In this document: positions 1 through 32,347 of the stretch, piece after piece
How positions within the stretch are numbered: position 1 is the stretch's first letter
Layout: each line of letters begins with the position of its first letter
Source of the DNA: a virus
Lineage: Duplodnaviria > Heunggongvirae > Uroviricota > Caudoviricetes
Length of the DNA stretch: 64,000 nucleotides
Reading direction: 5' to 3' (one strand)
IMG/VR virus record: IMGVR_UViG_3300020049_005532
Location: 22,466-86,465 of that record
Notes under the pieces: model-generated
What the model saw: only the letters and a program-made list of their open reading frames with translations
What the model was told of the DNA's origin: nothing
Databases searched by the model: none
Position numbers and translations under genes: made by a program

Positions 1-635
1 GGTCAAATGCCGATATTGCAAACGATGCCGAAATTGCATTAAGTAAACTAGAAGTTGGAACGGCAGGTCAAGTTCCAGTAATCAATCTTGGCGGAACGTT
101 GGCACTAAGGACTCTTTCTGGTAAGGTGATCATTGACGAAGACGGAGTTACTGCATTTAATCCTGCCGAATTAATCGTCGATGCCGACATTGCAAATGGC
201 GCAGATATAACTCGAGACAAATTAATTGCTGGCACAGCAGACGTTATTTTAGCTAACGACGGATTTGGTCGTTTAAGTGAATCAACCGTCACTGTTGCCG
301 AACTTGAAGCCGCAATTGGCGGTACAGCAGTCACTAGCGTTACACTCACTGATAACACAACAACAGTTGCATATCAAACTACTGTTGCTGATAAAGATGT
401 TATCCACCTCAAATATTCAATTAAACGCGGAACTACATATGAAGCCGGAACTATCACTGTGATCAGTGATGGAACCAATGCGTCAATTGCACAAGGCGGC
501 GTATGTACTATTGGCGATGTTGGAATAACAATTACTGCTGCTATTTCTGGCGCTCTACTACAAGTTCGTGGTGCAGCAACTAGCACTGGTGCAGATGCAA
601 CAATGAAATTTACTGTTTCCGATTGGGAAGCTTAA
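1..635 (+). CDS. Tail-fibre-like protein, 5' end outside window. The frame is open from position 3 with no stop upstream, so the listed ORF at 99 is an internal Met.
   Basis: Open frame from the window edge. Internal repeat DIANDAEIALSKLEVGTAG / DADIANGADITRDKLIAGTAD. T/A/G-rich beta-type composition typical of fibre proteins. Sits first in a fibre gene cluster. Confidence 0.5.
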   Translation, partial: SNADIANDAEIALSKLEVGTAGQVPVINLGGTLALRTLSGKVIIDEDGVTAFNPAELIVDADIANGADITRDKLIAGTADVILANDGFGRLSESTVTVAELEAAIGGTAVTSVTLTDNTTTVAYQTTVADKDVIHLKYSIKRGTTYEAGTITVISDGTNASIAQGGVCTIGDVGITITAAISGALLQVRGAATSTGADATMKFTVSDWEA

Positions 636-669: not shown

Positions 670-2988
670 ATGGCTGATAATTTTTATAAAGTTAAAAAAG
701 GGTTAAACGTACAGCCGCAGGCGTCTCCGACAATCGATCAGAATGGCGATATTGCGGTTGATACAGCGGATAACAAACTTAAAGTTCGTATTAACGGTAC
801 AACTGACAACGCCGTATTTGAAGCTGCATCACAAGCCCTTACAAATAAAACTCTCACTAGTCCAGTTATCAATACTCCAACTGGTATTACTAAAACTGAT
901 GTCGGTCTAGGTAACGTTGATAACACGTCTGATGCAACAAAAGACGCTGCTACAGCAACTTTAACAAATAAAACCCTTACGTCTCCGGTTATCAATACGC
1001 CAAGCACTGATGTTGTAACTATGGATGGGCAGGCATCTACTCCTAGTAATCCATCCGCTGGTAATTATAAATTATATGTTGATGATAACACTACCAAGTT
1101 AACTCTTCTTGATAGTTCAGGTAATGCTACAGAGATCGGTGCTGGCGGTCAAGGGGGAATCAATTACATTGAAAACTTTGACGCCGAAGTCAATACTGAC
1201 GGCTTTGCTACATATGCCGATGCAGCAGGAACTCAACCTGTTGATGGCACTGGCGGTTCGCCAAATGTTACATTTACTCGAACTACTTCTTCTCCATTAA
1301 GAGGAGTAGCTTCTTTTCTATTTACAAAAGATGCAGCAAACCGACAAGGTCAAGGTGCAAGCTACGATTTCACAATCGACTCTGCTGATCAAGCAAAGAT
1401 GATGCAAATTGGTTTCGATTACAGCGTAGCCTCTGGCACGTATGCCACAGGCGACTTAGCTGTTTACATAGTTGACGTTACTAACGGCACGGTCATCCAG
1501 CCCTCAGCTTATCAAATCGAAAACGTAGGTGTAACTTCTGTAGCAAGGCTCACATTTCAAACCGCAAGCAACTCTACTTCTTATCGACTTTGTTTCCATG
1601 TCGCATCGACATCGGCAAGTGCGTACACAGTAAAGCTAGACAATGTTTCGCTAGGACCCCAAGTCGTCCCACTCGGCGCTCCGGTTACTGACATGGATAA
1701 AACCTATTCCGGAACAATAACCGGAACAACTATTGCTGGTTCAGTAACATACACAGCGAATACTTTAAGGTATGGAAGAGTAGGGGATTGTGTTCGTGTA
1801 AGCGGTAACATTCGAGTTAACGTCGTAACTACGGCACCCACTGGAAGCATCTATATACCGATGCCTACAGGACTCTCCTACGACACAACCAAAGTTGCAC
1901 AAGATGGCGGTCGAGGTGTATGGGGGACAACATCTAGCAAAATTGCTGGTGTAAAATTAGACGTTAACTTCATAACACTGAACACGCCCAATACACAAAG
2001 TGTTGAGGTTCAATCTGGTACTGGTACTTTTGGGACACTAGCCAATGGTGATGAATTAAAGGTAGATTTTTGCATTCCAGTAGCAGGCTGGTCGTCGAGC
2101 ACCGTGGTTAGTTCGAGTGCGGATACACGGGTAGTCAACATGACAGCCCGTAACTACAGTAACGGAACTCTAGCATCAGGTGCATCGCACACTGTAATCC
2201 TGAACACCGTAGCATCAGATACACATGGTGCATACAACTCTGCGACTGGTGAGTACACCGTCAAAGTTCCTGGGTATTACTCGATAAACGGTGAAGTAGG
2301 GATGGCAGCAACGGCTGCGGCAGCTACTCGGCAATTGTTTTTATACATTCGAGTTAACGGCACTGGTATTAGCAACACATACACCTATGCGAATACGACC
2401 TCCTCGATAACTCATAGAGCGCAAGCTAGGGTTAACTGGTACTGCAATGCTGGCGACATTATTACGCTTGTTGCAGAAAATGATTTAGGTGGAACAGGAA
2501 CTCCACAGCCGGGGACTGGTAACTCCAACTTCTCTATTAACCTCATCCAAGGCCCCAGCCAGATTGCTGCGAGCGAGGTTATTGCTGTCGATGCGTACGC
2601 TCCAACGTCAACACACACAAGCTCAACCACCATAATGACAGGCTGGACAGAGATTGTAGATACACACGGGTCCTTTAATCCAACAACTGGAATCTTTACT
2701 GCGCCAGCTCCAGGTTACTATAGGTATGAATCGACATATACACCGTCAAACGCTGCGACGCCTTGTAGCGTTTATGTTTACAAAAACGGAGTGGCTTTTA
2801 CTGGGACAAGAAAAGGTTCTGCTTATTCTAACGGAACAGTTAACCCCACTGCGGTTGTGTTTGGAACTATGCTTCTTAATGCCGGAGATACCATCAGCTT
2901 TTTTGCACAAAATAGCTCTGGCGGGGCTGTTAGCACAGACGGCGCTAATACTTTTATGACAATCCATCGTCTTGGCGGAGTTGGTTAA
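670..2988 (+). CDS. Tail fibre / receptor-binding protein (772 aa) with an N-terminal LTNKTLTSPVINTP repeat and two tandem C-terminal C1q/TNF-like jelly-roll domains.
   Basis: The repeat TLTNKTLTSPVINTP occurs twice. The C-terminal halves (about nt 2125-2570 and 2590-2985) each carry a C1q-like pattern: TGxFT.PvPGYY, then vYv.kNG, then LNAGDtIsF, then sNFsi.L. Confidence 0.6.
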   Translation: MADNFYKVKKGLNVQPQASPTIDQNGDIAVDTADNKLKVRINGTTDNAVFEAASQALTNKTLTSPVINTPTGITKTDVGLGNVDNTSDATKDAATATLTNKTLTSPVINTPSTDVVTMDGQASTPSNPSAGNYKLYVDDNTTKLTLLDSSGNATEIGAGGQGGINYIENFDAEVNTDGFATYADAAGTQPVDGTGGSPNVTFTRTTSSPLRGVASFLFTKDAANRQGQGASYDFTIDSADQAKMMQIGFDYSVASGTYATGDLAVYIVDVTNGTVIQPSAYQIENVGVTSVARLTFQTASNSTSYRLCFHVASTSASAYTVKLDNVSLGPQVVPLGAPVTDMDKTYSGTITGTTIAGSVTYTANTLRYGRVGDCVRVSGNIRVNVVTTAPTGSIYIPMPTGLSYDTTKVAQDGGRGVWGTTSSKIAGVKLDVNFITLNTPNTQSVEVQSGTGTFGTLANGDELKVDFCIPVAGWSSSTVVSSSADTRVVNMTARNYSNGTLASGASHTVILNTVASDTHGAYNSATGEYTVKVPGYYSINGEVGMAATAAAATRQLFLYIRVNGTGISNTYTYANTTSSITHRAQARVNWYCNAGDIITLVAENDLGGTGTPQPGTGNSNFSINLIQGPSQIAASEVIAVDAYAPTSTHTSSTTIMTGWTEIVDTHGSFNPTTGIFTAPAPGYYRYESTYTPSNAATPCSVYVYKNGVAFTGTRKGSAYSNGTVNPTAVVFGTMLLNAGDTISFFAQNSSGGAVSTDGANTFMTIHRLGGVG

Positions 2989-3215
2989 TGTCGAGTTGGA
3001 ACTTAAACAAACAAAACGAAGTAAGTCTAATTACTAAAATTGACGATACTACGACTAGTGGAACGACATACATCGGTAAAGCCGTACCAGGTTCATCTGA
3101 ATCAGCTGCTGTATGGCAAATCACTAAAATAACAGATACAGAAATTTTATTCGCTAAAGGCGATGATTTATTTGATAAACAATGGTCTCAGCGAACAACT
3201 TATACATATAAATAA
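2988..3215 (+). CDS. Small hypothetical virion-module protein (75 aa).
   Basis: ATG overlaps the stop of the fibre gene (TAATG). It is co-oriented within the late module. Confidence 0.4.
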   Translation: MSSWNLNKQNEVSLITKIDDTTTSGTTYIGKAVPGSSESAAVWQITKITDTEILFAKGDDLFDKQWSQRTTYTYK

Positions 3216-3226
3216 ACGGATTATTT

Positions 3227-3643
3227 ATGGTGCCGGAAAAACTTTTAGAAGAAAAACCAAAGAAAAAGAGATGTCCAGAACTTGCTCGCAAATATAGGAA
3301 CGCTTTTCGCGAACGCAATCCTGACTATCATAAAAACTATGAGAGACAACGACGAAAAAAGAATCCAGAATTAGCAAAAGGTCATGATTTAAAAAAACAT
3401 TACTGGCCGGATTTGACTGGACAACAAGCGATTGAGGAATATAACAGAATGCGAGCCGCGCAAAATAATAAATGTGCTATTTGTGAAATTGAAGGCAAGG
3501 TTCTTCACGTTGATCATGATCACAATACTGGTCGAGTAAGATCCTTACTTTGTGGAAACTGTAATACTGCACTCGGATTAATTAAAGAATCAGCAAATAT
3601 TGCCGAAAAATTAAAATTTTATATAGAGAAGGTGTGTAAATGA
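3227..3643 (+). CDS. Endonuclease VII-like HNH resolvase (T4 gp49-type).
   Basis: CAICEIEGKVLHVDHDHNTGRVRSLLCGNCNTALG matches the endo VII core C.IC..(9)..HxDHDH..G.VRGLLC..CN..G. It lies among late genes as in T4. Confidence 0.8.
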   Translation: MVPEKLLEEKPKKKRCPELARKYRNAFRERNPDYHKNYERQRRKKNPELAKGHDLKKHYWPDLTGQQAIEEYNRMRAAQNNKCAICEIEGKVLHVDHDHNTGRVRSLLCGNCNTALGLIKESANIAEKLKFYIEKVCK

Positions 3644-4047
3644 GTTTTTCAAATTCAACAGAAGAAGATGTCTTGCAGCAGATTTTTATCGGAACTTCCT
3701 TGCCTTGGTCGGCTAATACCGATCTCTGGATTGCTCTTTACACAGCCGATCCAGGAGAAGCCGGAACTGCTATTACCAATGAAGCGACCTATGGCGGATA
3801 TGCCAGAAAAGCATTGACACGCGCAACGGATTTTTCTGTTAGCGGAAACACGGTTAGTAATGCTAACTTGGAACAATTTGACGCTTGTACTTCTGGTTCA
3901 AACGTCATTACTTATGCCGCAGTAGTTGATACCGCAAGCGGTGCTGGTCAAATTATCGTTCGAGCAGAATTAAACAGTTCAATTACCGTTAGTACCGGCG
4001 TTGTTCCTCAGTTTGCGGGTAACGCACTTTCGTTTACATTGGATTAA
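3640..4047 (+). CDS. Hypothetical virion protein (135 aa).
   Basis: Start overlaps the upstream stop (ATGA). Composition is beta-rich. Confidence 0.45.
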   Translation: MSFSNSTEEDVLQQIFIGTSLPWSANTDLWIALYTADPGEAGTAITNEATYGGYARKALTRATDFSVSGNTVSNANLEQFDACTSGSNVITYAAVVDTASGAGQIIVRAELNSSITVSTGVVPQFAGNALSFTLD

Positions 4048-4050
4048 TAG

Positions 4051-4917
4051 ATGGCATTTAATTCGTTCGGTAAATATGGAGAAGCATTTGATAATGGCAA
4101 AGTTCATTATCAATATGTGTATAAAACAGCTTTGCCTGCTGCGGCAACTGCTGGTTATTTTATCGACGCCAATCAATCTTCTGGTCTTCCAGTCTATAAC
4201 GCATTTGCTGGCTCGGCAACAACGTTTACTCCCCTAACTGGCTCAAGAAATCAAGGTATATACACTGGAACTTCTTATCCAGGAGAAACAAAAAGATTAC
4301 TAAGAATGCAGTTATTAACAACTACTTCTAGTAACGGTTTGCCAAATTATACATATCTTTGTGATTATCTTGGATTCTATCCTCTAATTGATGCCGATAG
4401 CACTGATCAACAAGATATGGATAATACTCTCGGATTAACTCGGTACACCGATGGTAATGGAGTTCGAATTGTTTTAATTGCTTCAGCTCCTATGGTTTTA
4501 ACTGCTAGTTGTACGCTGGTATATACAAATCAAGACGGAGTAACAGGAAGATCTGTCACTTTTAACGTCATACCGGCATTAAATATTGGAGTATGTGCAA
4601 CTGGAGCATCTCCAACATTAGGCGGAGCTGGACAAGCAACTCCTTTTGTTATTTTAGCAGACGGAGATACTGGAGTAAGAGCAATTGAATCTATTACTTT
4701 TGCCGGTAGTGCCGGTGGATTTATTTGTGCGTGCTTGGTAAAACCGATTGCCTCGGCAATCCAGCTCGAAGCTTCAGTACCAGTAGAAAAATCATTTGGA
4801 TTTGAACAACAACTGCTTCCGGAAATTAAAGACGGAGCATATTTAAACTTTCTCATTGGTCGTGGTGGCACAGCTGCTATTGATCTTAGAGCAGAACTTA
4901 TTTTTATAAATGGCTAA
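4051..4917 (+). CDS. Virion protein, paralog A of a tandem pair (288 aa).
   Basis: Shares with the next gene the segments YTdGnGVR..L..........L.YTnQDG.TG.S, then DTGvR...S......G......LvKPI, and C-terminal LPEIKDGA.L. Confidence 0.5.
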   Translation: MAFNSFGKYGEAFDNGKVHYQYVYKTALPAAATAGYFIDANQSSGLPVYNAFAGSATTFTPLTGSRNQGIYTGTSYPGETKRLLRMQLLTTTSSNGLPNYTYLCDYLGFYPLIDADSTDQQDMDNTLGLTRYTDGNGVRIVLIASAPMVLTASCTLVYTNQDGVTGRSVTFNVIPALNIGVCATGASPTLGGAGQATPFVILADGDTGVRAIESITFAGSAGGFICACLVKPIASAIQLEASVPVEKSFGFEQQLLPEIKDGAYLNFLIGRGGTAAIDLRAELIFING

Positions 4918-4926
4918 GGAGTCACA

Positions 4927-5808
4927 ATGGCTTGGACTAGTATAGACGACATGATTTCAGAGATTACAAGCGGTAAATTCAATCGCATTGATTGGAACAA
5001 GATTACTGGAGCCGCAGCTTATACTGCCGGTCGATGGTACGATATGTCTGCGCTTAACGGCACTCCAATTGCCAACGCATGGGCAGGGACAGCACTTACT
5101 TATAGAGCTTGTGATGAATCAACTGGTAACGGTACGCAAATTTTTGGAATGAGGCACGGAGGAGACGTTTCTCCTGACTCTAAAAGAATCCTTAACGGTT
5201 CGGCGATCACTGCCGTTGCAACAGGAGTTCCAAGTCAATTAATGCTTGTTGATATGTGCGGATATTGGCCAGGTATCAACATGAACACACTTTCTTCTCA
5301 GACATTATCTGGCACGCCTTCGCTGCGATATACTAATGGCGTAGGGGTTCGTGCCGCACTTGTTGTTGTGACAACTACAGGGGCCACCGCTCACAACTTG
5401 TCATTAAGCTATACGGATCAAGATGGCAATACCGGAAACTCTTTGCCTGTCACGGTGTCTTGCACTGCTTCGGCGATAACGCCGCATATTACTCATTCCG
5501 GTACAGCAGCAAATAACTATGGTCCCTTTCTGCCGCTTGCTAGCGGTGATACTGGAATTAGAAACGTAGCAAGCGTTCAACTCTCCGCTGCATCTGGCGC
5601 AGGGACGGCAGCTCTTGTTCTTTATAAGCCAATTCTTACAATTCCTCTGACAACTGCTTCTGTTGCAAGCGAACGCGATTTTATGAATCAAATTCCTTCA
5701 TTGCCAGAAATTAAAGATGGAGCATGTCTAACATGGCTTCTATTTACTGGAGCAGCAGTTGCTGCTAACACAAACTTCTATGGAAGTATAGAAAGTGGAT
5801 ACGGCTGA
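4927..5808 (+). CDS. Virion protein, paralog B of a tandem pair (293 aa).
   Basis: See paralog A. Contains NGVGVRAALVVVTTTGATAHNLSLSYTDQDGNTGNS and C-terminal LPEIKDGACL. Confidence 0.5.
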   Translation: MAWTSIDDMISEITSGKFNRIDWNKITGAAAYTAGRWYDMSALNGTPIANAWAGTALTYRACDESTGNGTQIFGMRHGGDVSPDSKRILNGSAITAVATGVPSQLMLVDMCGYWPGINMNTLSSQTLSGTPSLRYTNGVGVRAALVVVTTTGATAHNLSLSYTDQDGNTGNSLPVTVSCTASAITPHITHSGTAANNYGPFLPLASGDTGIRNVASVQLSAASGAGTAALVLYKPILTIPLTTASVASERDFMNQIPSLPEIKDGACLTWLLFTGAAVAANTNFYGSIESGYG

Positions 5809-6554
5809 TGCTAGTTCGTAACGGATCAACTCTATTTCAAAACCCTGGTGTATTTCGGGGAATTGTATCAAATAGGGTAGGAAATTATGTTAAGGGAGGA
5901 CTCCAAAACCGTATGTACGGAGGTTTCTCTCAAACTTTTGGTGCTTATCCCAATGGATATCTAGCATCAAAATCTTTTATTTTTCCAATTAAATCCGGTT
6001 CACTTTCTTCTTATACACTAGCTTCTGGGATTATGTCAGGAAGCATAACGCTAATTCCTGCTAAAGTCTTAGAGGGATCTGCTAGTGCCACACTGACTGT
6101 CACAAACGCACAATTAGATCGAATTATTAACATGTTGGCAAGCGCGGCATGTTCAATAGTTGGCGATTTAAATCTAGGAGCAGCTGTTAGCGTTGAAGCC
6201 GCTTCTACAATGGCAATATCCAAGCTCAGCGCAATCTTAGGTGGAATTTTTGATATTTCTGCTGATGGAAGCGCAATATTAAGTGCAGATGCCGACATGG
6301 GCGCTCTTGCAAATATGATAGCTGAAGCCGGAGGTCCAACTCCACTAAGTCCAGAAGGGTTAGCGGAAGCGGTTTGGAACAGTATATTGTCTGATTACCA
6401 AATAACCGGAAGTGCAGGTAAAGCACTCACTGATTCTGGCGGAGCTGGCAATCCTTGGGCTGCTATTTTAGAAGATAACAAAGACCCAGGAACTTTCGGT
6501 AAACACGTTCAAGAGCTTCTAAAAAGAAACTTCTATTTAGGAACTAAAGACTAA
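5808..6554 (+). CDS. Hypothetical virion protein (248 aa).
   Basis: ATGA-coupled to the upstream gene. Ala/Gly/Ser-rich. Confidence 0.45.
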   Translation: MLVRNGSTLFQNPGVFRGIVSNRVGNYVKGGLQNRMYGGFSQTFGAYPNGYLASKSFIFPIKSGSLSSYTLASGIMSGSITLIPAKVLEGSASATLTVTNAQLDRIINMLASAACSIVGDLNLGAAVSVEAASTMAISKLSAILGGIFDISADGSAILSADADMGALANMIAEAGGPTPLSPEGLAEAVWNSILSDYQITGSAGKALTDSGGAGNPWAAILEDNKDPGTFGKHVQELLKRNFYLGTKD

Positions 6555-7162
6555 TGGGCACAGTTCTATTTGACAATCAAATTAAAACCGTTATCGAAGA
6601 ACAATCCGTTGGCGGTCAGGTTTACTCTGATTCGATCAACTTGGAGATGTGCGAACACATTTGCTTTGTCATCCAAAACGAAGTTCAGGTATTGGCCGAG
6701 GTTGAATTTGACGACACGGACATTGTTGGCGATAAAATCTTTGTTTTTCCTCATCCCTACGTTAATGGAACTAAAGTTAGATTTACCACAACTGGAACGC
6801 TCCCTACCGGCCTTAGCTTGGCAACAGACTACTACTTAACCAATGTCAATGGATTTGGCTTTGAAGTAGCTTCTAGCAAGGCTAATGCGATAGCAGGCAC
6901 CAATATAGAGTTTTCTGGAGGTTCTGGTACACATACCGTGGTTCCTCAAGCCTACAGCACGTTAAATTGTGTTCTAGAAGCAGCTATTGAGCCTGACGTA
7001 TGGGCAGAATTGTCCGCAAGCTTGGTTCAAAGTTCTAAAACTGAGAACTTAATATATGAATTAAATAACCCTGTTTATAAGTTTATAAGAATGAAATGTA
7101 CGATTGAATCAGGGCAATCGGTTTTAATTGTGAAATGCTTGATGAAAGGGCATGGATATTAA
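6554..7162 (+). CDS. Hypothetical virion protein (202 aa).
   Basis: ATGA-coupled to the upstream gene. Confidence 0.45.
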   Translation: MGTVLFDNQIKTVIEEQSVGGQVYSDSINLEMCEHICFVIQNEVQVLAEVEFDDTDIVGDKIFVFPHPYVNGTKVRFTTTGTLPTGLSLATDYYLTNVNGFGFEVASSKANAIAGTNIEFSGGSGTHTVVPQAYSTLNCVLEAAIEPDVWAELSASLVQSSKTENLIYELNNPVYKFIRMKCTIESGQSVLIVKCLMKGHGY

Positions 7163-7956: not shown

Positions 7957-9186
7957 ATGGCAAGAGTACCTTGGCTTACAACGCAAGGACTAATTAATTC
8001 CGTCAAGCGCAAAATATCTATGCCGCTTGAGCAGGGAACTTTTAGTCTTGAAGACATGACTCATTTCCTTAATGAAGAAATGCAAATTTCTCAGGTTCCA
8101 TCTATTATGGAATTTTCTGAGGAATATTTTGTTTATAAAATTCGTGTCCCTCTAGTTGCAGGAAAAAGTCGTTATGACATCCCTGATCGTGCTATCGGCA
8201 TGAAGATACGAGATATCTTTATTGAAGACGAAAACGGCAATATGGGAGAAACCGCTCGTGTATCTCCTGATGAAAAAGCAACTTGGCAGTCCAACACTAC
8301 CAATTTTACACAGAATTATATCTACTATCTTGAAGGTAATCAAGTAGTATTTACTCCTACATCACAGTCCAATACGGGCTATGTTGTATTTTATATTTAC
8401 CTACGTCCAAATCAACTGGTTTTGGATACTCGTGCAGCTATTGCACAAAACTTTGTTAAAAAACTGACAGTAGAAACTAATCCAACTGCTGGTGATACAA
8501 TTACAATCAATGACGTTGTATATACCGCTGTGGCAAGTGGTGCAGTAGCTGGAGAATTTAACATTGGGGCATCTGCTTCGGCAACTGCATCTAATATCGC
8601 GTCAGCATTGCTTTCTCCGCTTACTGGATCAGCAACAACTGATGTCGTTAAGATTTCTTTTAGCGATGCAACTTATGAATTTGATTCGAGTTCGGCTAAC
8701 CTCGTTTTTGCCGATGAAATTGGTGTAAATTTTGACCAACTTCCAACTGAATGGGTTAATCCTGACACGCTTGAAACCGAATCTCTTTTCGGTCAAGGCG
8801 AATTAATTGACTTTCTTCAAACTAAACCTGGACATAGAACCTTTTCCTACGATCAGGAGCTGGTTGAAATTGACGGAACTGAGGGCTACTTTGATACAAT
8901 TCCGGAAGGATTTATTGTAGGAGATTATATTTGTTTAGCAAACGAATGTATCATACCGCAAATTCCTCCAGATCTTCATAACGGCCTTGCAGAACGCGCA
9001 GGCGCTCGCATTCTTTCGGCACTTGGCGACCAAGCCGGTCTACAAGCTTCTATGGCTAAAATTCAAGAAATTGACGGACGACAATCAACGCTTCTTAACA
9101 ACAGAGTCACTGGCGCGCCTATGAAGGTCACTAGCAAAAACTCAATGTTACGATCAAGCAAGCGTTGGAATCGACGTATTTACTAA
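7957..9186 (+). CDS. Virion protein (409 aa).
   Basis: Precedes the 1453-aa tail protein. No motif recognised. Confidence 0.45.
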   Translation: MARVPWLTTQGLINSVKRKISMPLEQGTFSLEDMTHFLNEEMQISQVPSIMEFSEEYFVYKIRVPLVAGKSRYDIPDRAIGMKIRDIFIEDENGNMGETARVSPDEKATWQSNTTNFTQNYIYYLEGNQVVFTPTSQSNTGYVVFYIYLRPNQLVLDTRAAIAQNFVKKLTVETNPTAGDTITINDVVYTAVASGAVAGEFNIGASASATASNIASALLSPLTGSATTDVVKISFSDATYEFDSSSANLVFADEIGVNFDQLPTEWVNPDTLETESLFGQGELIDFLQTKPGHRTFSYDQELVEIDGTEGYFDTIPEGFIVGDYICLANECIIPQIPPDLHNGLAERAGARILSALGDQAGLQASMAKIQEIDGRQSTLLNNRVTGAPMKVTSKNSMLRSSKRWNRRIY

Positions 9187-31057: not shown

Positions 31058-32347
31058 CTATTTTAATTGTTCCATTTTAAAAGTTAAACCAATGTCTTTG
31101 TAAGGATGATCGACTTGTCCTCCATCAGAGATGATGAAGATAATTCGATTTGACAACTTAATGTCTTCTTTTGAATAATACCCATCAGTAAAAATGATGG
31201 ATAGGTTAGGGTTATTCTTTTTGATATGATCAAATACCTCCCTTGGGTCTGTACCTCCTGATTCGATTTCACTTTCTTTAAATAAGGAACCTTTTTTATA
31301 TTTCTTAAAGGAATATAAACTGGTATGCCATAGACCAAGATTGCATTTCTTCATCTGTCCTTCGCCAAGAAGCGCATTAATCATCTTGATTGACTGATTA
31401 ATTTCATTATATGTAAAAGACCCGCTTGTGTCCATATACATGTTCATAAAAGGCATACGGTCAGTTGTGTTGCCTGGAGCATACTCCGCATACCGTTTAT
31501 TTGGACGAACCCATGTGCTCACTCTATCAGGACTAGTCATATTCTTCTTTACTGCATACTTAAAGATTGCCTTATAGTTAAGCTTCTTAAGCTGCATGTC
31601 AATTTCAGAAATAAAATCCTTAATAGATCCAGGAATCAGACTGTGGTCTTTAAACGTTTTGTCAATGGCTCTTTCTGCCATTTTCTTTGCTTCGTTTAGA
31701 AGCTGACGTTTTTCTTCTTCAGTCAATTCTTCCCAATCGTGTTTATCAAAGGGCTTATATTTCTTAAACTGATCATGATTAATGCTAGAACCTTTACCTT
31801 GTCCTTTGCCAGAGTTTCCTTCCCCGTCCTGTTCCTGGGGAGGATTTGTTGTTTGTTTTAACAAATCAAAATATGTCTCCGTTGTGCTAAATACCGGAAA
31901 AGGAGTTCCGTCTTTTTGTTTCCAATCTTTAACGTTAACGCACTTTCCTGGACATTTTGTATTCTTGCAAGGAACTTTTTGTGCTGGATCACATTGATCA
32001 CATCCATCAGGAAGATTCTTGATGTATTGATTAATCGCCATGTCAGCGGCAATATTCTTAAGAGTATGCTCTTTTTCATTTCCCAACCGCTCAAATCGAA
32101 ACAAATGACCTTTTTCAAAGTGCATAAGCTCGTGCAAAAATACAGCGACCCGTTGTTCCGGTTCGAGAATATTAAAAAACTTGGGACTAGCTACAATATT
32201 AAACTTCATTGTTTTTTTATCGTAGTAAATCCCAGCCGTTGGCACTTCCTCGGTCATTCGGATGTGCATTTCCTGAACAAGATGCCCGATAAAAGCATGT
32301 TGCTTGATCATGTCTCGAATTGTACGCTGAAGAAGTGGATTACTCAT
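31058..32347 (-). CDS. CobT-like VWA-domain protein with an N-terminal HExxH metallopeptidase-like module (partner of the MoxR/CobS ATPase).
   Basis: HELMHFEKGH in the N-terminal region. Acidic/low-complexity linker. C-terminal vWA-like segment. ATGA-coupled to the AAA gene. Confidence 0.55.
   Translation of the reverse strand: MSNPLLQRTIRDMIKQHAFIGHLVQEMHIRMTEEVPTAGIYYDKKTMKFNIVASPKFFNILEPEQRVAVFLHELMHFEKGHLFRFERLGNEKEHTLKNIAADMAINQYIKNLPDGCDQCDPAQKVPCKNTKCPGKCVNVKDWKQKDGTPFPVFSTTETYFDLLKQTTNPPQEQDGEGNSGKGQGKGSSINHDQFKKYKPFDKHDWEELTEEEKRQLLNEAKKMAERAIDKTFKDHSLIPGSIKDFISEIDMQLKKLNYKAIFKYAVKKNMTSPDRVSTWVRPNKRYAEYAPGNTTDRMPFMNMYMDTSGSFTYNEINQSIKMINALLGEGQMKKCNLGLWHTSLYSFKKYKKGSLFKESEIESGGTDPREVFDHIKKNNPNLSIIFTDGYYSKEDIKLSNRIIFIISDGGQVDHPYKDIGLTFKMEQLK

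What the first reader, a model, noticed from the sequence alone, without database searches (positions are those of the whole stretch)
2125..2985. Tandem C1q/TNF-like jelly-roll domains at the C-terminus of the major tail fibre
The last ~280 residues of the 772-aa fibre consist of two homologous ~130-aa units. Each carries the C1q hallmark sequence: TG.FT.PvPGYY, then a vYv.kNG block, then LNAGDtIsFfaqN, then a terminal sNFsI / TFMTIHRLG.

C1q-like heads are trimeric receptor-binding modules in eukaryotes and in a few bacterial collagen-like proteins. A duplicated C1q head on a phage fibre is an unusual receptor-binding architecture.
Basis: partly seen in the sequence, partly recalled or inferred. 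Interest (0 to 1): 0.55.

Follow-up and report, generated by a model that had tools for sequence, protein, structure and literature searches.

The report
Phage fibre with two C1q heads
The last 287 residues of a 772-residue phage fibre protein really are two C1q-type jelly-roll domains in tandem, but this layout is common in uncultured phages, where each domain is swapped between phages as a separate cassette.

Summary
ORF 670..2988 (+) encodes 772 aa. Residues 486-627 and 628-772 are homologous (BLASTP E 5e-10; profile-profile E 2e-37). Each half alone narrowly passes Pfam's C1q cut-off. AlphaFold2 models superpose on solved gC1q domains (TM 0.80-0.87, rmsd 2.2-3 A).

The fold assignment is right; the rarity claim is not. 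C1q receptor-binding proteins in marine and glacial phages have been described since 2014. A tandem-query search found 2,647 cluster representatives at 50% identity. Of the 253 best relatives, 228 have exactly two units, 16 have three, 3 have one and 6 have 7-11. UniProt viral proteins such as Gordonia phage minor tail proteins also align over both units.

What is added here:
- The fibre reads: N-terminal anchor, conserved CBM-like domain, then three variable slots (dom3 or a third C1q; C1q; C1q) separated by conserved junctions.
- The slots are exchanged independently. One relative shares 97% of C1q-1 but about 25% of dom3 and C1q-2.
- C1q-1 is under strong purifying selection (dN/dS about 0.05).

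Best reading: a modular host-recognition fibre of a podovirus with an SU10-type adaptor. It is a new member of a known kind. How two C1q units joined by a 9-residue linker assemble remains unresolved.

The parts
670..2988 (+). Fibre / receptor-binding protein gene, 772 aa, stop TAA
   Evidence: ORF list. An identical protein, P0001, lies on the 86-kb JGI contig Ga0206650_1000007.
670..1149 (+). N-terminal region (aa 1-160) with two copies of the (A/T)LTNKTLTSPVINTP motif; presumed virion-attachment and shaft part
   Evidence: 61-nt direct repeat 820-880 / 943-1003. PHROG hits are phrog_3030 and, weakly, phrog_25620 'tail collar fiber protein'. Much of aa 50-120 has low pLDDT.
1162..1674 (+). 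CBM-like beta-sandwich (aa 165-335), the most conserved domain of the family
   Evidence: pLDDT is mostly above 90. Foldseek hits the CBM22 tandem 4xup at E 2.7e-7; Foldseek does not report query coordinates, so placing that hit on aa 165-335 is inference. Mean pairwise identity in the family is 60%, against 26-33% for the downstream modules. There is no Pfam hit.
1687..2109 (+). Variable slot 1, 'dom3' (aa 340-480): an 8-strand beta domain of unassigned fold
   Evidence: AF2 pLDDT is about 70. No profile similarity to the C1q units (HHalign probability 1.3%). In 16 relatives a third C1q unit takes its place.
2086..2136 (+). Conserved junction GWSSSTVVSSSADTRVV (aa 473-489) between slot 1 and C1q-1
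   Evidence: Family consensus GWSSSxVxSSxADTRVVA. The junction is 87.5% identical at DNA level to L004 over 80 nt, while the flanks do not align. The same S..DTRVVA junction follows the first C1q unit in three-unit relatives.
2125..2550 (+). C1q unit 1 (aa 486-627), variable slot 2
   Evidence: Pfam C1q 24.7 bits against a cut-off of 23.7. AF2 and Foldseek match gC1q. It is 97% identical to P0002 unit 1 with dN/dS about 0.05.
2551..2577 (+). Conserved inter-unit linker GPSQIAASE (aa 628-636)
   Evidence: P629 is invariant and G628, I632 and A634 are at least 90% conserved. It is a helix at 630-635 in the full-length model.
2578..2985 (+). C1q unit 2 (aa 637-772), variable slot 3, C-terminal end of the protein
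   Evidence: Pfam C1q 26.6 bits. AF2 and Foldseek match gC1q. Nearest relatives are P0013 (76%), P0004 (73%) and P0006 (68%), a different set from those of unit 1.

Best explanation
ORF 670-2988 encodes a host-recognition fibre of an uncultured podovirus that carries an SU10-type adaptor. The protein reads: N-terminal anchor and shaft, then a conserved CBM-like beta-sandwich, then three variable modules in series. The last two modules are genuine gC1q-type jelly rolls.

**Shown:**
- Both units belong to the C1q family by sequence and by predicted fold.
- The tandem is conserved across a very large family.
- The three variable modules have different evolutionary histories. They are separated by conserved junctions at which similarity to relatives starts and stops.
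- C1q-1 is under strong purifying selection.

**Inferred:**
- The fibre is a homotrimer.
- Each C1q unit forms its own trimeric knob with the same unit of the other two chains.
- Each knob binds a host-surface ligand, most likely a saccharide.
- Recombination at the conserved junctions reshuffles knobs between phages and gives combinatorial host specificity.
For: **Fold and family.**
- Pfam C1q passes for each half alone.
- The family profile hits adiponectin and C1q structures by sequence at E 4e-20 and 1.8e-17.
- AF2 pLDDT is 88.5 for the C-terminal 287 aa.
- Foldseek TM is 0.80-0.87 to C1QL1/3, Caprin-2, collagen X NC1 and C1q.

**Conservation of the tandem.** 116 of the 118 top homologues matched by the unit HMM have two units, as do 228 of 253 when the representative search is added.

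**Modularity.**
- P0002 is 97% identical in C1q-1 but 27% in dom3 and 25% in C1q-2.
- P0004 and P0013 are 72-75% identical in C1q-2 but 22-25% in C1q-1.
- DNA similarity to L003 covers only gene nt 511-1023 and 1417-1916. Similarity to L004 covers only nt 532-1023, 1387-1466 and 1872-2312.
- 25 of 136 units have their nearest relative in the other position of another protein, up to 75% identity.

**Selection.** Between the window and L003, C1q-1 has dS 0.92, dN 0.043 and dN/dS 0.047.

**Autonomy of the units.** Copy number is 1, 2, 3 or 7-11 in relatives.

**Virion context.**
- An SU10_adaptor gene lies 5 kb downstream, with a holin gene between.
- The relative P0002 sits between SU10-type portal and adaptor genes.
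- In the podovirus MW202898 the homologue follows a 'tail fiber protein' at the end of the structural module. That protein has a sub-threshold T7 tail-fibre N-terminal match.
- C-terminal PHROG hits are annotated tail fiber or minor tail protein.

**Saccharide binding by TNF/C1q-like knobs.** This is the interpretation given for the phage 812 spike knob and for lactococcal receptor-binding-protein heads (PMC13433997). Under-recruiting C1q receptor-binding proteins in pelagiphages are described in PMC3909814.
Against: - No multimer model or coordinates could be examined, so trimerisation and the stacking of the two knobs are untested.
- gC1q domains have both termini at the base, and the linker is only 9 residues (the GPSQIAASE motif). 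A simple coaxial head-to-tail stack of two trimers is therefore geometrically awkward.
- No ligand, host or adsorption data exist.
- The gene lies upstream of the adaptor, among genes without annotation. In SU10 the fibre genes lie downstream of the adaptor. A head-fibre or decoration role is not excluded.
- The individual Pfam scores exceed the cut-off by only 1-3 bits.
Confidence: 0.6

Rival explanations
1. Single-chain pseudo-trimer. The three roughly 140-aa modules of one chain (dom3 or a third C1q, C1q-1, C1q-2) pack around a pseudo-threefold axis. That would be a natural counterpart of engineered single-chain C1q, adiponectin or TNF.
For: - Linkers are short (about 9-17 aa) and both termini of a gC1q domain lie at its base. 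Single-chain constructs such as 5hkj and 4dou exploit exactly this geometry; they are the best PDB matches.
- 224 of 253 relatives have exactly three post-CBM modules: 208 have dom3 plus two C1q units, and 16 have three C1q units.
- Full-length Foldseek alignments to single-chain trimers are about 110-155 columns longer for four of the five top single-chain hits than with the 287-aa model. This hints that dom3 aligns to a third protomer.
Against: - The two-unit AF2 model (pTM 0.70) does not superpose on two neighbours of any single-chain trimer: rmsd about 26 A, and TMq 0.36-0.39, which is no better than a single-domain match.
- dom3 has no detectable sequence similarity to the units.
- Modules are exchanged independently, which argues against co-adapted heteromeric interfaces.
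- Relatives with 1, 2, 7, 10 or 11 units exist.
Confidence: 0.12
2. Only the terminal C1q-2 binds the receptor. C1q-1 (and dom3) are structural spacer knobs of the shaft.
For: - In most characterised fibres the distal tip carries the specificity (established knowledge).
- The last unit ends within 2 residues (median) of the C-terminus, and within 15 residues in 98% of relatives.
Against: - C1q-1 is as variable across the family as C1q-2: 26% mean identity for each, against 60% for the CBM-like domain.
- C1q-1 is exchanged as its own cassette.
- A given C1q-1 variant is kept under strong purifying selection, dN/dS 0.047. This is the pattern expected of a specificity module rather than a neutral spacer.
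Confidence: 0.2
3. The protein is not a tail fibre. It is a capsid fibre or decoration adhesin, or a non-virion protein.
For: - The gene lies upstream of the adaptor gene. It is followed by a gene matching 'head protein' phrog_240 / Pfam Gp80.
- In L003 the homologue sits between portal and adaptor genes.
- There is no match to a characterised fibre N-terminal anchor.
Against: - In MW202898 the homologue sits at the tail-fibre position, after the internal virion proteins and directly after a 'tail fiber protein'.
- The best named PHROG matches are tail fibre or minor tail proteins.
- A homologous upstream partner of about 300 aa is conserved in the window and in L004, and it shares the TLTNK motif with the fibre.
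Confidence: 0.08

Closest known systems
C1q-domain putative receptor-binding proteins of uncultured marine pelagiphages and cryoconite phages (Mizuno et al. 2014, PMC3909814; Bellas et al. 2020, PMC7468147)
   Same: - A C-terminal C1q-type domain on a protein encoded next to a tail-fibre gene.
- The domain is highly variable between otherwise similar phages.
- It is interpreted as the host-recognition module.
   Different: - Those reports describe a C1q domain per protein and do not discuss tandem units.
- Here there are two units behind a conserved CBM-like domain, with demonstrated independent exchange of each unit.
Eukaryotic gC1q heads (C1q, C1QL1-3, Caprin-2, adiponectin, collagen VIII/X NC1; Pfam PF00386)
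   Same: - The hallmark sequence motif.
- The same 10-strand jelly-roll in the models (TM 0.80-0.87).
   Different: - No collagen-like stalk: there is no run of G-X-Y.
- Two units lie in one chain.
- Sequence identity is only 14-21%.
- Trimer formation was not tested.
Engineered single-chain C1q and adiponectin globular heads (PDB 5hkj, 5hzf, 4dou)
   Same: - Several C1q units in one polypeptide joined by short linkers.
- They are the best sequence and Foldseek matches.
   Different: The predicted relative placement of the two phage units does not match neighbouring protomers of these trimers (rmsd about 26 A).
TNF-like knobs and heads of characterised phage proteins: phage 812 central spike knob (PDB 9eul), lactococcal Tuc2009 and 1358 receptor-binding-protein heads, TM4 gp23 C-terminal receptor-binding domain (PDB 9n6a), Gordonia and Mycobacterium phage minor tail proteins
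   Same: - A trimeric-fibre context.
- A TNF/C1q-type jelly-roll used for cell-wall saccharide recognition (PMC13433997).
- BFVD models of the Gordonia phage minor tail proteins align over both units (285-344 alignment columns).
   Different: - The hosts are different (Gram-positive bacteria and actinobacteria).
- The N-terminal architectures are different.
- There is no significant sequence similarity apart from a marginal profile hit to 9eul (E 0.0076).
BclA C-terminal domain of the Bacillus exosporium (Pfam PF18573)
   Same: A bacterial C1q/TNF-like trimeric knob at the end of a filament.
   Different: - The match is below the Pfam cut-off (31 bits against 38).
- BclA has a collagen-like stalk and a single knob.

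Membership tests
C1q domain family (Pfam PF00386, gC1q) | Profile score above the curated gathering threshold | tested here: met
   Unit 1 scores 24.7 bits, unit 2 scores 26.6 bits and both together 47.1 bits, against a cut-off of 23.7. The family profile hits gC1q structures at E down to 4e-20.
C1q domain family (Pfam PF00386, gC1q) | Hallmark motif (F/L)(D/N)xVxx(N/D)..G.Y...TG.FT.P..G.Y.F, and the later NG and (A/E)GD blocks | tested here: met
   Both units carry it. The alignment to human C1q chains pairs VILNTVASDTHGAYNSATGEYTVKVPGYY with [29 protein letters not shown]. The same blocks are the conserved columns of the family.
C1q domain family (Pfam PF00386, gC1q) | Ten-strand jelly-roll fold superposable on solved gC1q domains | tested here: met
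   AF2 pLDDT is 88.5. Foldseek TMt is 0.80-0.87 at rmsd 2.2-3.3 A to 9lkk, 4qql, 4d7y, 4oum, 1gr3 and 1pk6. This rests on predicted models only.
C1q domain family (Pfam PF00386, gC1q) | Assembly into a compact trimer about a threefold axis | not testable with these tools
   Only monomer prediction is offered and coordinates are not returned.
C1q/TNF-related and BclA-type proteins (collagen stalk plus head) | Collagen-like G-X-Y repeat stalk preceding the head | tested here: not met
   There is no run of four or more G-X-Y triplets in the 772 aa.
BclA_C (Pfam PF18573) | Profile score above the gathering threshold | tested here: not met
   31.0 bits for both units together and 19.6 / 22.9 bits singly, against a cut-off of 38.
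TNF family (Pfam PF00229) | Profile match | tested here: not met
   It is not listed even at E up to 10. Only structural hits to EDA and APRIL/BAFF appear, and they score below the C1q hits.
Single-chain pseudo-trimeric C1q/TNF head | Consecutive units packed as neighbouring protomers of one trimer | tested here: not met
   Two-unit alignments to 5hkj, 5hzf, 4dou and 4zch give rmsd about 26 A and TMq 0.37-0.39. This is a test of a monomer prediction, not of the real assembly.
Phage tail fibre / receptor-binding protein | Encoded in the virion structural module next to tail or connector genes, with a recognisable fibre-anchoring N-terminus | tested here: inconclusive
   The structural-module context is met: SU10_adaptor and holin genes nearby, and the tail-fibre position in MW202898. 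No characterised anchor domain was detected. There are only weak PHROG fibre hits and the TLTNK motif shared with the upstream gene.
Carbohydrate-binding module (CBM22-like) for aa 165-335 | Sequence-profile membership, or fold match plus ligand-binding residues | tested here: inconclusive
   There is a Foldseek hit to 4xup (E 2.7e-7) but with a whole-chain rmsd that is uninformative. There is no Pfam hit. Binding residues were not examined.

The most novel reading that the evidence does not exclude
The three post-CBM modules of one chain (dom3 or a third C1q, C1q-1, C1q-2) assemble in cis into a natural single-chain pseudo-trimeric C1q head. More generally, tandem C1q units joined by 9-residue linkers adopt an assembly not seen in any solved C1q/TNF protein, such as base-to-base knobs or a pseudo-hexameric ring. 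In either case each face of one head would be an independently swappable specificity cassette.
Probability: 0.15. Interest if true: 0.55.

Novelty: new member of a known kind. Interest (0 to 1): 0.3.

Why it matters
C1q-type heads appear to be among the common host-recognition modules of uncultured aquatic phages, yet I found no solved or tested phage protein of this tandem family in the literature and PDB copies searched.

This locus gives a clean example of the dominant architecture. It also shows that each C1q unit is a separately exchangeable, selectively maintained cassette flanked by conserved junctions. That is useful in three ways:
- for predicting breakpoints in receptor-binding-protein engineering;
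- for interpreting 'metaviromic islands';
- for choosing constructs for structural work.

It does not change the picture of what C1q domains or phage fibres are. The one open structural question is how tandem gC1q units with both termini at the base, joined by a 9-residue linker, pack in a fibre.

Tried and rejected
- **Megablast of the gene against GenBank phages** found no match. tblastn found a single distant relative, MW202898.
- **Pfam, PHROGs and NCBIfam on neighbouring genes and on the N-terminal 340 aa** returned almost nothing. The phage type rests on the SU10_adaptor, SU10_portal, Gp80 and holin hits in the precomputed contig tables.
- **dom3 as a third, degenerate C1q unit:** HHalign probability 1.3%. 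It is rejected at sequence level and left open at fold level.
- **A recent DNA-level tandem duplication:** no direct repeat links the two units, so it is rejected.
- **A collagen-like stalk:** absent.
- **The 75-aa ORF overlapping the fibre stop codon as a conserved fibre chaperone:** no homologue in the three related loci, so it is unsupported.
- **Literature searches** for tandem C1q in phages, for PDB 9n6a (TM4 gp23) and for 'C1q-like' receptor-binding-protein trimers found nothing specific.
- **Inter-domain geometry** could not be examined.
Full report
**Observation**

The window carries a 772-aa ORF at 670..2988 on the + strand. The finding's coordinates, 2125-2985, are residues 486-772.

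The two halves (aa 486-627 and 628-772) are 34% identical over 95 residues (BLASTP E 5e-10). Profiles built from 68 family members align over 131 columns with HHalign probability 99.9% and E 2e-37. There is no DNA-level direct repeat between the units, so this is not a recent duplication.

**Fold and family**

- Pfam C1q (PF00386, gathering score 23.7 bits) is passed by each half alone (24.7 and 26.6 bits) and by the pair (47.1 bits, E 3.5e-12).
- BclA_C stays below its cut-off, and no TNF-family hit is listed even at E up to 10.
- By sequence, the best PDB match of the protein is the engineered single-chain human C1q head 5hkj.
- With the family profile, single-chain adiponectin 4dou reaches E 4e-20 and 5hkj reaches E 1.8e-17. 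About 30 other gC1q chains follow.
- AlphaFold2 with a 68-sequence alignment gave mean pLDDT 80.7 for the full protein. With 113 sequences it gave pLDDT 88.5 and pTM 0.70 for the C-terminal 287 aa.
- Foldseek against the PDB matches each unit to C1QL1/3, Caprin-2, collagen VIII/X NC1, C1QTNF5 and C1q at TM 0.80-0.87 and rmsd 2.2-3.3 A.

There is no collagen-like G-X-Y stalk.

**How unusual is it?**

It is not unusual.

- C1q-domain proteins next to tail-fibre genes were described as putative receptor-binding proteins of pelagiphages in 2014. There they are among the most frequent genes in under-recruiting 'metaviromic islands' (PMC3909814).
- They were described again in cryoconite phages (PMC7468147) and on eCIS fibres (PMC12923769).
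- The word-indexed search found 3,123 homologues among the 8,000 candidates scored.
- An exhaustive phmmer search with the 287-aa tandem found 2,647 representatives of 50%-identity clusters at E up to 0.001, and 956 at E up to 1e-10.
- An HMM of the unit, built here, finds exactly two units in 116 of the 118 top homologues it matched.
- Across the 253 proteins it matched among those returned by both searches, the count is: 228 with two units, 16 with three, 3 with one, and 6 with 7-11. These lists favour tandem proteins because the queries contained the tandem.
- In BFVD, the top hits align over 285-344 columns, which suggests two units. They include Gordonia phage minor tail proteins (Orchid, Yvonnetastic, Sixama, OneUp, Lauer), an uncultured Caudovirales 'C1q domain-containing protein', and giant-virus proteins from a Mimivirus and Bodo saltans virus.
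- The one GenBank phage relative, MW202898, is annotated 'caprin-2 domain protein'.

I found no paper that discusses the tandem arrangement in phages.

**Architecture of the whole protein**

- aa 1-160: partly low-confidence N-terminus with two TLTNKTLTSPVINTP repeats, encoded by a 61-nt direct repeat.
- aa 165-335: a confident beta-sandwich. Foldseek hits the CBM22 tandem 4xup (E 2.7e-7), which I assign to this domain by inference because query coordinates are not reported. There is no Pfam match.
- aa 340-480 ('dom3'): an 8-strand domain with pLDDT about 70.
- aa 473-489: junction GWSSS..SS.ADTRVV.
- aa 486-627: C1q-1.
- aa 628-636: linker GPSQIAASE.
- aa 637-772: C1q-2.

Across the family the CBM-like domain is the conserved part (60% mean pairwise identity). 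dom3, C1q-1 and C1q-2 are variable (33%, 26% and 26%), and the two junctions are conserved.

All 16 three-unit relatives keep the CBM-like domain but lack dom3. In several of them the first C1q unit is followed by the same S..(D/E)TRVVA junction. The family therefore has three variable slots after the CBM-like domain. Slot 1 holds either a dom3-type module or a C1q unit.

**Modular exchange**

Identity of relatives to the window protein, by module:

| Relative | CBM-like | dom3 | C1q-1 | C1q-2 |
|---|---|---|---|---|
| P0002 | 88% | 27% | 97% | 25% |
| P0003 | 70% | 24% | 89% | 26% |
| P0004 | 75% | 30% | 25% | 72% |
| P0013 | 72% | 20% | 22% | 75% |

- At DNA level, similarity to the P0002 locus (L003) is confined to gene nt 511-1023 (75.6%) and 1417-1916 (83.6%).
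- Similarity to the P0004 locus (L004) is confined to nt 532-1023, the 80-nt junction at 1387-1466 (87.5%), and nt 1872-2312.
- The breakpoints coincide with the domain junctions.
- 25 of 136 units have their nearest relative at the other position of a different protein, up to 75% identity. Units therefore also move between slots.
- For C1q-1 between the window and L003, dS is 0.92, dN is 0.043 and dN/dS is 0.047. The shared cassette is old and under strong purifying selection, while its neighbours in the same gene are unrelated variants.

This is the signature of functional, independently selected specificity modules.

**Context**

The identical protein lies on an 86-kb JGI metagenome contig.

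- The upstream gene (323 aa) is cut by the window start. The ORF at 99..635 is its C-terminal part.
- This upstream protein shares the ATLTNK motif with the fibre. It is homologous to the gene upstream of P0004 (36% identity, E 6e-24).
- Downstream lie a 75-aa ORF, an endonuclease VII gene, a Gp80-family gene, two paralogous genes, a holin gene and, at 7957..9186, an SU10_adaptor-family gene followed by a 1,453-aa protein.
- P0002 sits between SU10-type portal and adaptor genes.
- In the T7-like MW202898 the homologue follows the internal virion proteins and a 'tail fiber protein'. That protein has a sub-threshold T7 tail-fibre N-terminal match.
- In SU10 itself, trimeric long fibres dock on the adaptor and short fibres on the nozzle (PMC9509320).

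A tail-fibre role is thus the best reading. The position upstream of the adaptor leaves a capsid-fibre role possible.

**Mechanism**

I infer a homotrimeric fibre whose variable modules, including both C1q units, bind host-surface ligands, probably saccharides. This is by analogy with the TNF-like knob of the phage 812 spike and the lactococcal receptor-binding-protein heads (PMC13433997). Recombination at the conserved junctions would give combinatorial specificity.

The autonomy of the units favours each unit forming its own knob. The evidence for autonomy is the variable copy number (1-11) and the free exchange between proteins and between slots.

**Unresolved**

gC1q domains have both termini at the base, and the linker is only 9 residues. 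A coaxial base-to-apex stack of two trimers is therefore hard to build.

The geometry would suit a cis pseudo-trimer of the kind engineered in 5hkj and 4dou. Full-length Foldseek alignments to those chains are about 110-155 columns longer for four of the five top single-chain hits than with the two-unit model. But the two-unit AF2 model does not superpose on neighbouring protomers (rmsd about 26 A, TMq 0.36-0.39).

**Verdict**

The protein is a new member of an already described kind: C1q-type phage receptor-binding proteins. The tandem form is the norm in its family. Interest is modest. It rests on the clean cassette-exchange pattern and on the open question of how tandem C1q units assemble.

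Noticed in passing
L003 (Logan contig SRR13786855_49458), all called late genes, e.g. 4001-7132: The phage that carries the closest C1q-1 relative (P0002) reads TAG as glutamine. Its genes hold many in-frame TAG codons and end in TGA. TAG supplies 28 of 145 Gln codons elsewhere in the locus but 0 of 24 in fibre aa 406-1043, the CBM-like domain plus variable modules (Fisher p 0.015). This hints that that part came from a standard-code phage such as the window's.
   Followed up: partly
proteins P0124, P0130, P0132, P0222, P0144, P0202: These are giant proteins of 1,147-2,436 aa with 7-11 consecutive C1q-like units joined by linkers of about 10-15 aa. They lack the CBM-like and dom3 domains. Their origin (phage or cellular) and assembly are unknown.
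   Followed up: no
window 4051-4917 and 4927-5808 (+): Two adjacent paralogous genes (288 and 293 aa, 33% identity, E 1e-33) have no match in Pfam or PHROGs. They lie between the fibre and the adaptor.
   Followed up: partly
window 2988-3215 (+): A 75-aa ORF has its ATG overlapping the fibre stop codon (TAATG), which suggests translational coupling. It has no family hit and no homologue in the three related loci examined.
   Followed up: partly
window 3227-3643 (+); also L002 2181-2786 and 6103-6639: An endonuclease VII gene sits inside the structural module just after the fibre. GIY-YIG and HNH/NUMOD4 genes lie further upstream on the contig. An HNH-family gene (phrog_1314) lies at 31058-32347 on the minus strand. 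The genome appears rich in homing-endonuclease-type genes.
   Followed up: no
window 1-635 (+) / L002 8995-9966: The ORF listed at 99..635 (TTG start) is the C-terminal part of a 323-aa gene cut by the window start. The protein shares the ATLTNK motif with the fibre. Its C-terminal 173 aa are 36% identical to the gene upstream of P0004. It is possibly a proximal fibre or adaptor partner.
   Followed up: partly
window 820-880 and 943-1003 (+): A 61-nt direct repeat (74% identity) encodes the duplicated (A/T)LTNKTLTSPVINTP motif in the fibre N-terminus.
   Followed up: no
window about 20.7 kb: Gene orientation switches here. The large ORFs of the structural module are all on the + strand from 1 to 20.7 kb. 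The replication and nucleotide-metabolism genes (DNA polymerase, primase-helicase, ribonucleotide reductase, exonuclease) are all on the minus strand from 20.7 to 64 kb. Cumulative GC skew turns at about the same place. No tRNA genes are present in the window.
   Followed up: no
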